DNA of 51,930 bases, taken from positions 1 through 51,930 of IMG/VR virus record IMGVR_UViG_3300043415_000095; one strand, given 5' to 3'. The stretch's first letter is position 1; every line of letters starts with the position of its first letter. Below are positions 18,203 through 18,690 of the stretch, one piece after another. Source of the stretch: a virus. Lineage: Duplodnaviria > Caudoviricetes. The notes beneath the pieces were generated by a model that did not search any database, was not told the DNA's origin, and saw only the letters and a program-made list of their open reading frames with translations. Both the position numbers and the translations under genes were made by a program.

Positions 18203-18690
18203 GGGCCGGGGAATACCTTTTAACCAAGGGATTCAGAAACGACTCGGCCCGCCCCTTTTATGACCCGGACTTACTTATTTTTATTCATGGGTGGGTAGAT
18301 CAAGTCTGTTCCGGGTCACCCCTTGATGTTACCGAAGTTTGTTTCGGGAACATGCCTGAACCCCGCGCTGCACGGTATGCAGCCCCGCCGATGGGTTACT
18401 CGGATATGGGTGGGCGACAGAACATATCGTCCCCGGCGCTGTACCGGCACAGCCTACTGAAATTGGCGATGGGAATACAGACACGCCGCAGCGACTGGTA
18501 ATCGTGGGCGGCACCTATTTACGACACGGCGATGCTGAAAAGTGGAAGCATCCAGATACCCGCGATCCACGCGAGAGAGTCTGGCTTAGTCGGGTTAACG
18601 TCCGACCCGTGTCACCTATTTACGGAGCGGCGGAGGTTGGGGGTTCCCGGCTGTCGCCTGAGAAATCAGGCCCGCTCCACCCTATTTATT
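18203..18690 (+). ncRNA. Cluster of structured RNA units including a tRNA-like cloverleaf
   Basis: Five closing stems each followed by RCC and a U-rich linker; no convincing ORF. Confidence 0.6.

What the first reader, a model, noticed from the sequence alone, without database searches (positions are those of the whole stretch)
18523..18616. tRNA mimic with its anticodon loop replaced
It has a 7-bp acceptor stem, a D-like arm ATGCT/AGCAT with GG in the loop, an anticodon-position stem CCAGA/TCTGG enclosing 23 nt (with a CGCG-ATCCA-CGCG hairpin), a 4-nt variable region, a T-like arm GTCGG/CCGAC and a 3' ACC. It should not decode as written. Inference: a decoy for tRNA-targeting defence, or a stable scaffold displaying a guide loop.
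Basis: partly seen in the sequence, partly recalled or inferred. Interest (0 to 1): 0.7.

Follow-up and report, generated by a model that had tools for sequence, protein, structure and literature searches.

The report
tRNA-shaped unit in phage RNA array
A 94-base stretch of a freshwater phage folds like a transfer RNA but cannot decode, and it is one of several folded RNA units laid out like a string of tRNA precursors, so it probably attracts the host's tRNA-cutting enzymes.

Summary
The cloverleaf is real. It is the minimum-energy fold (z -3.64). A cloverleaf descriptor hits the 52-kb window once, against 2 hits in 92 shuffles. The helices keep pair probabilities of 0.84-0.99 in about 1 kb of context.

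It is not a tRNA. ARAGORN, including relaxed and intron modes, and the Rfam tRNA model at E<=10 find nothing. The T loop has 8 nt and the anticodon loop is replaced by a 21-23-nt hairpin.

It is not a lone element. It is unit 1 of at least five stem-closed units in a 506-nt non-coding gap (18198-18703) between thyX plus a small membrane ORF and an unknown gene, in a complete temperate phage. Units end with a helix, NCC and a 6-8-nt A/U-rich spacer (ACC-TATTTAC three times), as in polycistronic pre-tRNA. Relatives gain and lose whole units at these spacers; two contigs lack exactly the cloverleaf.

Neighbouring units show wobble and compensatory changes on the + strand. The cloverleaf itself shows none.

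Best reading (0.4): a pre-tRNA mimic that directs RNase P and RNase E cleavage. The decoy idea is untested.

The parts
18523..18616 (+). Unit 1, the reported cloverleaf. Acceptor 18523-29/18607-13; D arm 18532-36/18547-51; extended 'anticodon' arm 18553-57/18579-83 with inner hairpin 18561-73; variable region 18584-88; T-like arm 18589-93/18602-06; ACC 18614-16.
   Evidence: Homologue L093:200-292 differs by one loop deletion and one substitution.
18624..18682 (+). Unit 2, a three-way junction. 7-bp acceptor-like stem 18624-30/18672-78; hairpin A 18631-56; hairpin B with a GAAA loop 18657-71, stacked on the 3' strand; then ACCC.
   Evidence: fold -32.8 kcal/mol on + against -25.3 on the reverse complement. 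(depth peak in 4 of 4 runs; G18636A with C18651T compensatory, and T18652C). (two C>U changes giving G.U pairs in L093).
18485..18515 (+). Hairpin unit h0 (5 bp + 4 bp, 7-nt loop) followed by ACC.
   Evidence: Absent from L093. Other hairpins followed by ACC occupy this place in contigs of runs X5 and X6 (table 7).
18516..18522 (+). Spacer TATTTAC between h0-ACC and unit 1. Part of the 12-nt direct repeat CACCTATTTACG.
18617..18623 (+). Spacer TATTTAC between unit 1-ACC and unit 2. Second copy of the direct repeat.
   Evidence: Contigs in X3 and X6 join the two repeat copies and lack unit 1 (table 5).
18683..18706 (+). Spacer TATTTATT, Shine-Dalgarno GAGGAG (18691-96) and the ATG (18704) of the downstream gene.
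   Evidence: In other contigs the same unit 2 plus spacer precedes different genes (table 7).
18261..18322 (+). Unit -3, closed by the 9-bp stem TGACCCGGA/TCCGGGTCA and followed by CCCC.
   Evidence: (I13). Replaced by a bare ACC-TATTT in a contig of run X5 (tables 5 and 5c).
18203..18255 (+). Unit -4, closed by GGGCCGGG/CTCGGCCC and followed by GCCCC.
   Evidence: Three one-sided, pair-keeping changes in the closing stem against L093.
18323..18484 (+). Middle segment: hairpin 18325-53 plus a larger branched fold. It is variable, being absent from L093 and partly absent from an X3 contig.
   Evidence: joint 18368>18484.
17378..17998 (+). Upstream gene thyX (flavin-dependent thymidylate synthase).
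   Evidence: Pfam Thy1, E 4e-46.
18063..18197 (+). 44-aa hydrophobic ORF directly before the array. The ORF call rests only on its frame and composition.
   Evidence: No PHROG hit.
18704..18967 (+). Downstream gene, 87 aa, of unknown function (phrog_1273).

Best explanation
The 94-nt element is a real, independently folding RNA module with the secondary-structure geometry of a tRNA precursor. It has none of the sequence elements a tRNA needs for decoding or identity.

It is one cassette in a 506-nt intercistronic leader made of at least five stem-closed modules, probably transcribed with the + strand replication and nucleotide-metabolism operon. The three distal units and their relatives follow one plan: a terminal helix opening with G+1 paired to C, a 3' A-CC, and then a 7-8-nt A/U-rich single-stranded spacer (UAUUUAC). 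The two upstream units are looser: they are followed by G/C-CCC(C) and a U-rich or A/U-rich stretch. This is the layout of polycistronic pre-tRNA.

Inferred mechanism: host tRNA-processing enzymes treat the array as a pre-tRNA string. RNase P cuts at G+1, guided by the 12-13-bp acceptor/T-type stack and by pairing to the 3' RCC. RNase E cuts in the A/U spacer, and 3' exonucleases trim back to the helix-CC end. This divides the operon transcript, leaves helix-capped ends that set the stability of the flanking mRNAs, and releases small stable RNAs. The last unit lies 12 nt upstream of the next gene's ribosome-binding site.

Shown: the fold, the shared end grammar, strand-specific structure conservation in neighbouring units, and gain and loss of whole cassettes at the spacers.

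Inferred: transcription, cleavage by these enzymes, and the consequences.
For: Fold:
- It is the energy minimum, z -3.64.
- It is the only descriptor hit in the window, against 2 hits in 92 shuffles, and 0 of 92 when NCC is required.
- Pair probabilities are 0.84-0.99 in 981 nt of context.

Grammar:
- h0, unit 1 and unit 2 each end with helix-ACC followed by TATTTAC or TATTTAT.
- Units -4 and -3 end with helix followed by GCCCC or CCCC.
- L093 repeats the pattern: ACC-TTATTTAC and ACCC-TATTTATT.
- Contigs of other runs show other hairpins followed by ACC-TA before unit 2, and ACC-TATTT in place of unit -3 (tables 5c and 7).

RNA level, + strand:
- In 3 of 4 runs, unit 2 carries G18636A with C18651T (G-C to A-U) and T18652C (G.U to G-C).
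- Against L093, 89 window-predicted pairs give 68 unchanged, 12 kept by a one-sided change, 1 kept by a two-sided change and 8 broken.
- The + strand folds better than its complement for unit 2 (-32.8 against -25.3), unit -3 (-23.6 against -17.2) and h0 (-13.7 against -10.8).

Not coding:
- A 1-nt deletion and a 1-nt insertion shift the reading frame between the window and L093 while the bases in between stay identical.
- No PHROG family matches the ORFs, and no protein homologue was found.

Cassette behaviour:
- Joints 18517>18620 (X6) and 18519>18630 (X3) remove exactly unit 1. Joints 18250>18326 and 18368>18484 remove other units.
- L093 lacks 18323-18515.

Fit to RNase P rules, from passages read in PMC11143913: the discriminator, C74 and C75 pair with the enzyme's GGU, and the 12-bp acceptor plus T stack acts as a measuring device. 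Unit 1 has 7+5 bp and unit 2 has 7+5 or 7+6 bp. Both have G+1:C72 and A-CC.

The listing of PMC2190699 states that RNase E cuts 1-3 nt after the CCA in polycistronic pre-tRNA.
Against: - There is no RNA evidence of any kind, so transcription, RNA ends and cleavage are all inferred.
- The cloverleaf itself has no covariation support. Against L093, 29 of 30 pairs are identical and the one changed pair (G18531-C18552) is broken.
- Its 96% identity to L093 is no higher than other shared blocks further downstream, which are 91-97% identical. Conservation may therefore reflect recent exchange rather than selection.
- Eight of the 21 changed pairs across the four units are broken, mostly inside units -3 and -4.
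- The T loop is not tRNA-like (8 nt, no TTC). No D-loop/T-loop tertiary pairs can be pointed to, so recognition of the elbow by RNase P is uncertain.
- The base before G+1 is C, not the preferred U.
- The 3' end is CC followed by U or C, never CCA.
- Only one full homologue could be fetched.
- The host, and therefore its RNase set, is unknown.
Confidence: 0.4

Rival explanations
1. Passive structural cassettes. The units are intercistronic stem-loop modules that stabilise or insulate mRNA segments by blocking exonucleases and protecting 5' ends. They also act as short repeated sequences at which recombination or slippage shuffles cassettes, like REP elements or the promoter/stem-loop cassettes of T4-type phages. 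tRNA enzymes are not involved, and the cloverleaf shape of unit 1 is incidental.
For: Whole units are gained and lost exactly at the repeated spacers (table 5). Unit 2 precedes different genes in different contigs (table 7). [quoted passage not shown] Most units are simple hairpins or Y shapes.
Against: It does not explain why every strong unit ends in NCC, nor why units 1 and 2 have G+1:C72, A73 and a 12-13-bp coaxial stack. No sigma-70-like promoter was found on the + strand, and no terminator-like site in the array, within 17500-19500, so the units are not promoter/terminator cassettes of the T4 type. A full four-way cloverleaf is rare by chance: 2 hits in 92 shuffles.
Confidence: 0.25
2. 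Decoy or sponge, a refined version of the first reader's idea. After processing, the NCC-ended tRNA-like and minihelix RNAs accumulate and soak up host factors that act on the acceptor end of tRNA. Candidates are toxins of anti-phage systems that modify the tRNA 3' CCA end or acceptor stem, or the CCA-adding and repair enzymes.
For: Several acceptor-like helices with A-CC lie in a row. The set of units varies between relatives, as expected for a counter-defence locus. Abstract openings in the search listing state that toxSAS enzymes pyrophosphorylate the tRNA 3'-CCA end, inspect the acceptor stem and are implicated in anti-phage immunity (bioRxiv 10.1101/2024.07.05.602228). They also state that MenT toxins extend tRNA acceptor stems (PMC10435456).
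Against: There is no direct evidence. The A of CCA is not encoded. No defence or counter-defence gene was recognised next to the array. The position directly upstream of a ribosome-binding site fits a cis role better. A decoy for anticodon nucleases is excluded in practice because there is no anticodon loop.
Confidence: 0.1
3. Relic of a phage tRNA gene cluster. Units 1 and 2 are former tRNA genes that lost their function and persist as neutral sequence. The spacers are the old inter-tRNA spacers.
For: The layout (7-nt spacers, G+1, A-CC) is that of a tRNA cluster. Unit 1 keeps tRNA-like arm lengths.
Against: All four helices of unit 1 are free of mismatches, yet the normally most conserved tRNA loops are gone. 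Neutral decay should damage both. There is no residual match to the tRNA model at E<=10, and ARAGORN does not call unit 1 even at a 60% threshold with introns allowed. Pair-keeping changes in neighbouring units point to continuing selection on structure.
Confidence: 0.08
4. DNA-level site. The repeated CACCTATTTAC motifs are protein-binding sites, for example arm-type sites of the phage integrase at attP, or origin iterons. On this view the folds are irrelevant.
For: The phage is temperate: an excisionase-like gene and an integrase lie at 19742-21343. No room for attP was seen right after the integrase gene, since the next ORF on the other strand starts 3 nt later. There are three copies of a 9-12-nt motif within 175 nt.
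Against: G.U-dependent, strand-specific pairing and a compensatory pair change are not expected for a duplex DNA site. The motif always follows a helix and precedes another. Units occur in other gene contexts in other contigs. The array lies 1.7 kb and seven ORFs from the integrase gene. No host tRNA-like core is present.
Confidence: 0.07

Closest known systems
Polycistronic bacterial pre-tRNA transcripts and non-tRNA RNase P substrates (for example the precursor of phage P1/P7 C4 antisense RNA, and operon mRNAs)
   Same: The units are arranged head to tail with short A/U-rich spacers. Each strong unit has G+1 paired to C72, a purine discriminator followed by CC, and a 12-13-bp coaxial acceptor/T-type stack. 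These are the features that the RNase P review PMC11143913 (passages read) names as the RCCA-enzyme pairing and the measuring device. That review's reference list cites the P1/P7 C4 precursor and polycistronic mRNAs as substrates.
   Different: No unit is a tRNA, and CCA is not completely encoded. The T loop and the elbow are not tRNA-like. Cleavage is not shown. The array lies inside a protein-coding operon of a phage.
t-elements of plant mitochondria (tRNA-like structures and acceptor-like stem-loops used as mRNA processing signals)
   Same: Both are non-canonical cloverleaves and simple acceptor-like stem-loops embedded in mRNAs beside gene starts and ends. For the t-elements a role as cis signals for RNase P or RNase Z has been proposed and partly shown, with release of a small stable RNA (PMC1920247, abstract and passages read).
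   Different: The t-elements were located through a conserved GGTTCRANYCC T arm. Unit 1 has no such motif. The organisms and enzymes are different, and here the units form a tandem array with a shared spacer.
YrlA / bacterial Y RNAs (tRNA mimics bound by Ro60/Rsr, also found in phages)
   Same: Both are tRNA-like domains in a non-coding RNA in which one arm is replaced by another structure. YrlA is a substrate of RNase P and of CCA addition (PMC4201824, abstract, section 6 and outline headings read).
   Different: YrlA keeps near-invariant tRNA-like T and D loops and tertiary pairs. Its RNA ends lie in the Ro-binding stem, not the acceptor stem, and it is encoded next to Ro60. Here the T loop is aberrant, the ends are at the acceptor stem, the phage has no TROVE-domain gene, and Rfam gives no match.
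PeSL regulatory cassettes of T4-type phages
   Same: Both are short repeated regulatory sequences between genes at which insertions, deletions and replacements of modules occur (PMC2839356, abstract read).
   Different: PeSLs are a strong sigma-70 promoter plus a terminator hairpin acting at the DNA and transcription level. In this array, no promoter-like site on the + strand and no terminator-like site was found, and the conserved feature is helix-NCC-A/U spacer.
Rfam freshwater-2 RNA (RF02980)
   Same: There is a weak partial match over hairpin B of unit 2 plus the ribosome-binding site and start codon.
   Different: The score is 19.8 bits against a gathering score of 49.9, with E = 2, and the middle 36 model positions are missing. 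The match is carried mainly by the Shine-Dalgarno and start region. It is not a member.

Membership tests
tRNA (RF00005) | Cloverleaf with a 7-bp acceptor stem, D arm, anticodon arm, variable region, T arm and discriminator | tested here: met
   The arm lengths are 7 / 5 (6) / 5 / 5 bp with 2-nt and 4-5-nt linkers.
tRNA (RF00005) | 7-nt anticodon loop with U33 | tested here: not met
   The stem encloses 21-23 nt that form a further hairpin. ARAGORN's intron modes do not rescue it.
tRNA (RF00005) | Canonical 7-nt T loop (TTCRANY) and conserved D/T tertiary positions | tested here: not met
   The T loop is GTTAACGT, 8 nt, or 6 nt with an added G.U pair.
tRNA (RF00005) | Recognised by tRNA covariance model or tRNA finder | tested here: not met
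   ARAGORN finds 0 genes in the window and never calls unit 1 at relaxed thresholds. Rfam gives 0 matches at gathering scores, no tRNA match at E<=10 in 18000-18900, and RF00005 gives 0 matches at E<=10 in the whole record.
tmRNA | tRNA-like domain plus a tag reading frame, detected by ARAGORN or Rfam | tested here: not met
   The only tmRNA calls appear at a 60% threshold, lie on the other strand and are clearly noise.
YrlA / Y RNA | Encoded near a Ro60 (TROVE) gene | tested here: not met
   PF05731 gives 0 matches in the complete record. The control search detects the family in 2 reference genomes.
YrlA / Y RNA | Near-invariant tRNA-like T and D stem-loops, with the RNA ends in the Ro-binding stem | tested here: not met
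   The T loop is aberrant and the ends lie at the acceptor-like stem. The features were taken from PMC4201824, section 6. Rfam gives no match.
RNase P substrate (bacterial type) | G+1:C72 closing pair, coaxial acceptor plus T-type stack of about 12 bp, and a 3' RCC able to pair with the enzyme's GGU | tested here: met
   By sequence only. Unit 1 has 7+5 bp and A-CC; unit 2 has 7+5 or 7+6 bp and A-CC. The rules were taken from PMC11143913.
RNase P substrate (bacterial type) | Cleavage at the predicted site by RNase P | not testable with these tools
   No RNA run holds the stretch. An in vitro or in vivo assay is needed.
Plant-mitochondrial t-elements (works-like comparison) | Transcript ends that coincide with the ends of the element | not testable with these tools
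   No RNA data are available.
PeSL cassettes | Strong sigma-70 promoter plus terminator stem-loop | tested here: not met
   The promoter/terminator scan of 17500-19500 finds no + strand promoter-like site and no terminator-like site in 18198-18703.
PeSL cassettes | Indels and replacements bounded by the repeated cassette | tested here: met
   Joints lie at the spacers (table 5), and the comparison with L093 agrees.
freshwater-2 RNA (RF02980) | Score at or above the gathering threshold of 49.9 bits | tested here: not met
   19.8 bits, E = 2.

The most novel reading that the evidence does not exclude
Freshwater temperate phages carry a fast-evolving, cassette-built array of pre-tRNA look-alikes: cloverleaf, Y-shaped and minihelix RNAs that all end in A-CC. 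Host tRNA-processing enzymes cut them out, and they then act in trans as decoys for host factors that read the tRNA acceptor end. Examples are anti-phage toxins that modify the 3' CCA end or the acceptor stem. This would be an RNA-based counter-defence distinct from the carriage of real tRNAs.
Probability: 0.1. Interest if true: 0.85.

Novelty: new variant of a known kind. Interest (0 to 1): 0.55.

Why it matters
tRNA-like signals that borrow tRNA-processing enzymes are known from organelles, from eukaryotic nuclei and their viruses, and from a few single bacterial and phage RNAs. I did not find, in the searches made here, a description of a tandem, cassette-shuffled array of such mimics inside a phage operon.

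If the array is processed as proposed, it would show how a phage divides a long operon transcript and tunes the stability of its parts using host enzymes only. It would also add a new family of structured phage RNAs from uncultivated freshwater viruses.

The module boundaries also give a clear example of how short repeated spacers drive mosaicism in non-coding phage DNA.

If the units act in trans as decoys, they would be a new kind of RNA counter-defence.

Tried and rejected
Searches for homologues mostly failed.
- DNA similarity to 50,697 phage records found nothing: no match for 18300-18720 in distant mode or for 14000-24000 in near mode.
- Four exact or degenerate DNA patterns in viral contigs gave 0 hits each.
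- Four protein-based scans of viral contigs were not useful. ThyX relatives are only 50-55% identical and not syntenic. The 87-aa protein gave one 45% hit. Ten helicase relatives share no DNA and no downstream synteny. The small-protein alignment A8 found none.
- In genome contigs the first pattern gave 0 hits and the second gave 1 chance hit, in an actinomycete.
- In metagenome contigs the first pattern gave 0 hits. It failed because the relative has one extra T in the spacer. The second pattern gave 2 stretches: one true relative (L093) and one chance hit inside a coding gene (L094).
- Covariance models of unit 1 and unit 2, searched over 95 sources (689,472 nt), found only the window and L093. 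One further hit at E = 4.5 (L084) lies in coding sequence, has fold z -0.73, and was rejected.
- CACCTATTTAC occurs in none of the 96 other loci. The one other exact ACCTATTTA in the window (29290, - strand) lies in a coding region with no helix before it.

Expression: no RNA holder was listed among the 24 runs. Nothing can therefore be said about transcription.

Coding hypothesis: rejected.

Intron-containing tRNA: rejected.

Guide-loop target inside the phage: none. The insertion matched only itself at up to 3 mismatches. The D-loop probe gave one additional 3-mismatch match, on the same strand, which is within chance.

Partner proteins: no TROVE gene and no CCA-adding enzyme in the record. 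No RNA-handling protein was seen among the 29 ORFs scanned; not every ORF was scanned.

Cultured phages with a distant relative of the downstream gene: 2 of 17 records were inspected, and neither has a long upstream gap.

The 271-nt fold did not form the acceptor stem of unit 1 and had z -1.07. Ensemble probabilities over three other contexts do favour the cloverleaf, so the result was set aside as a single-structure artefact. It is reported here because it counts against the reading.

Supplementary files of papers were not consulted.
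Full report
**Context.** The window is a complete 51,930-bp virus record.
- Genes from about 7 kb to 21.3 kb run on the + strand. They encode a replication and nucleotide-metabolism module: a DUF2800 nuclease, an Enc34-type ssDNA-binding protein, a KilA-N protein, family A DNA polymerase, a VRR-NUC protein, an SNF2 helicase, an HNH endonuclease and ThyX.
- These are followed by small ORFs, an excisionase-like protein and a tyrosine integrase.
- The structural genes (terminase, tape measure, tail) lie on the - strand.
- The nearest cultured relatives of the helicase are phages of Proteobacteria, at 55-58% identity.
- The finding lies in a 506-nt gap (18198-18703) between thyX (17378-17998) plus a 44-aa hydrophobic ORF (18063-18197) and an 87-aa gene of unknown function that starts at 18704.

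**The observation.**
- The cloverleaf is the minimum-energy fold of the 94 nt: -36.5 kcal/mol, z -3.64, with 1 of 200 shuffles as good.
- A cloverleaf descriptor written after the fact finds this one site on the two strands of the window. In 92 dinucleotide shuffles it finds 2 sites, and 0 when the 3' NCC is required.
- The five helices keep mean pair probabilities of 0.84-0.99 when folded within 221, 571 or 981 nt of context.
- One 271-nt minimum-energy fold did not form the acceptor stem. The ensemble calculations outweigh it.

**It is not a tRNA.**
- ARAGORN finds no tRNA or tmRNA in the window. It does not call unit 1 at thresholds down to 60%, with or without introns.
- Rfam has no match at gathering scores, no tRNA match at E<=10 in 18000-18900, and RF00005 gives nothing at E<=10 over the whole record.
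- The anticodon loop is replaced by a 21-23-nt hairpin. The T loop has 8 nt and no TTC.

**It is part of an array.**
- The element is flanked by a 12-nt direct repeat, CACCTATTTACG, at 18512 and 18613. A third, near copy lies at 18680.
- Each copy is the 3' end of a helix plus ACC plus an A/U-rich spacer. The order is: hairpin h0 (18485-18512)-ACC-TATTTAC; unit 1-ACC-TATTTAC; unit 2 (18624-18678)-ACCC-TATTTATT; then GAGGAG and the ATG.
- Unit 2 is a three-way junction. Hairpin B, with a GAAA loop, stacks on the 3' strand of a 7-bp GGAGCGG/CCGCTCC stem.
- Further upstream, unit -4 (18203-18250) and unit -3 (18261-18318) are closed by 8-9-bp stems and are followed by GCCCC and CCCC.
- Units 1, 2 and h0 begin with G paired to C, are preceded by C, and end in A-CC.

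**Relatives.** Public phage records, IMG/VR and the species-representative genomes gave no homologue.

Sequencing-run contigs did. Twenty-four runs from 17 studies hold part of 17400-19400. Four of them, from four studies, were laid on the stretch.
- All four have their depth peak, or one of their peaks, in the bin 18606-18672, which is unit 2.
- Similarity often starts at 18620 and stops at 18686, and different sequences follow on either side. Unit 2 is therefore a portable module.
- Contigs in X6 (joint 18517>18620) and X3 (joint 18519>18630) lack exactly the cloverleaf unit between the two repeat copies.
- An X5 contig has a bare ACC-TATTT in place of unit -3 (joint 18250>18326). An X3 contig lacks 18369-18483.
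- Loose ends before 18620 in X5 and X6 show other short hairpins followed by ACC-TA.

One JGI metagenome contig, L093 (2,248 nt), was fetched.
- Its order is: end of a small gene, unit -4, unit -3, unit 1, unit 2, a relative of the 87-aa gene. It has no counterpart of 18323-18515.
- Identity is 96% over 18523-18731 and 78% over units -4 and -3. It is 91-97% in several downstream blocks, and the middle of the 87-aa gene is not alignable at the DNA level.

**RNA or DNA, and coding or not.**
- In unit 2, runs X4, X5 and X6 (3 of 4) carry G18636A together with C18651T. These two bases pair in hairpin A, so G-C becomes A-U. The same runs carry T18652C, which turns G.U into G-C.
- L093 has C18655T and C18657T. 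Each turns a G-C pair into G.U.
- Taking the window's own minimum-energy folds of the four shared units as reference, 89 pairs give 68 unchanged, 12 kept through a one-sided change, 1 kept through a two-sided change, and 8 broken. The broken pairs lie mostly inside units -3 and -4, where the alignment is poor.
- The closing stems of units -4 and -3 are kept, with 4 one-sided changes and 1 break.
- The G.U pairs make the + strand fold better than its complement for unit 2, unit -3 and h0.
- These results point to structure in a + sense RNA, the sense of the surrounding genes.
- For unit 1 itself there is no covariation. 29 of 30 pairs are identical in L093, and the only changed pair, G18531-C18552, is broken. 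That leaves a 5-bp D stem and an unpaired purine at the place of tRNA position 26.
- A partly visible variant in X4 (table 7) changes two bases of the 3' strand of the D stem; its partner strand is not shown. It also changes U18557 to C, which would turn U.G into C-G, and it shortens the inner hairpin region by two bases.
- ORFs cross the units, but a 1-nt deletion in the D loop and a 1-nt insertion in the spacer put the window and L093 in different frames over identical bases. The ORFs match no PHROG family and no protein in the large database.

**Mechanism.** The grammar is a helix with G+1:C72, discriminator A, CC, and then a short A/U-rich single strand before the next G+1. This is the grammar of polycistronic pre-tRNA.
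- Passages read in PMC11143913 state that bacterial RNase P pairs its GGU with the discriminator, C74 and C75, and uses the 12-bp acceptor plus T stack as a measuring device. Unit 1 offers 7+5 bp and unit 2 offers 7+5 or 7+6 bp.
- The abstract opening of PMC2190699 in the search listing says that RNase E cuts 1-3 nt after the CCA in such precursors.
- From recall, not from a call: the spacer UAUUUAC resembles the classical A/U-rich RNase E sites of RNA I and 9S RNA.
- I therefore propose that the array is cut by RNase P at each G+1 and by RNase E in each spacer. This would divide the operon mRNA, cap the pieces with stable helices and release small RNAs.
- Every step after 'the RNA folds like this' is inference.
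- The closest functional parallel is the t-elements of plant mitochondria (PMC1920247, abstract and passages).

**Rivals.**
- Passive stabiliser and recombination cassettes in the style of REP or PeSL elements (PMC2839356, abstract) explain the shuffling. They do not explain the NCC ends or the full cloverleaf. No + strand promoter and no terminator was found in the array.
- A decoy for enzymes that act on the tRNA acceptor end remains possible but has no direct support.
- A relic tRNA cluster is unlikely, because the helices are perfect while the conserved loops are gone.
- A DNA site (attP arm sites or iterons) does not fit the strand-specific pair conservation or the occurrence of units in other gene contexts.
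- The phage encodes no Ro60 and no CCA-adding enzyme, and the element fails the YrlA features.

**Verdict.** The interpretation 'tRNA mimic that cannot decode' stands. The element is one cassette of a modular, pre-tRNA-like array, and its most likely role is as a processing signal rather than a solitary decoy or guide scaffold. The main weaknesses are that only one fetchable homologue exists, that the cloverleaf itself shows no covariation, and that there are no RNA data.

Noticed in passing
window 8355-9528: The DUF2800 / PD-(D/E)XK nuclease is split into two overlapping ORFs. 8355-8918 matches profile positions 1-191 and 8902-9528 matches positions 189-368 of PF10926. This could be a frameshift, a sequencing error or a programmed shift.
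   Followed up: no
window 16438-17381: Two adjacent ORFs both match the same part of the HNH endonuclease family phrog_374. 16438-16707 matches profile 198-257 and 16704-17381 matches profile 191-406. This suggests a partial tandem duplication or a broken first copy.
   Followed up: no
window 11838-13882: The 3'-5' exonuclease domain (11838-12383) and the polymerase domain (12296-13882) of the family A DNA polymerase lie in separate overlapping ORFs.
   Followed up: no
window 1-2000: The first 2 kb have 41% G+C against 49-61% in the rest of the record. They hold a GP88-family gene at 1035-1730.
   Followed up: no
window 18971-19195; L093 910-1550: A family of small paralogous proteins (N-terminal MTFE(D/E)WW, central AWQAAQ.AERE). 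There is one copy in the window and three tandem copies in L093. The region 18941-19141 has high contig depth in all four runs laid. No PHROG family matches and no IMG/VR relative was found.
   Followed up: partly
window 18656-18706: Weak partial match (19.8 bits, E = 2) to the Rfam freshwater-2 cis-regulatory motif. It covers hairpin B of unit 2 and the ribosome-binding site and start codon. The shared AGGAGAAA-CAAAATG start region may be common to freshwater phage genes.
   Followed up: partly
window 19742-21347: An excisionase-like ORF and a tyrosine integrase end 3 nt before a convergent - strand ORF, so attP is not directly downstream of the integrase gene. Its position was not located.
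   Followed up: no
window 18672-18696: The 3' strand of the unit 2 acceptor-like stem (CCGCTCC) could alternatively pair with the downstream Shine-Dalgarno GAGGAG. The 5' strand (GGAGCGG) is itself Shine-Dalgarno-like. This could form a switch if the 5' strand is removed by processing. It is seen by eye only.
   Followed up: no
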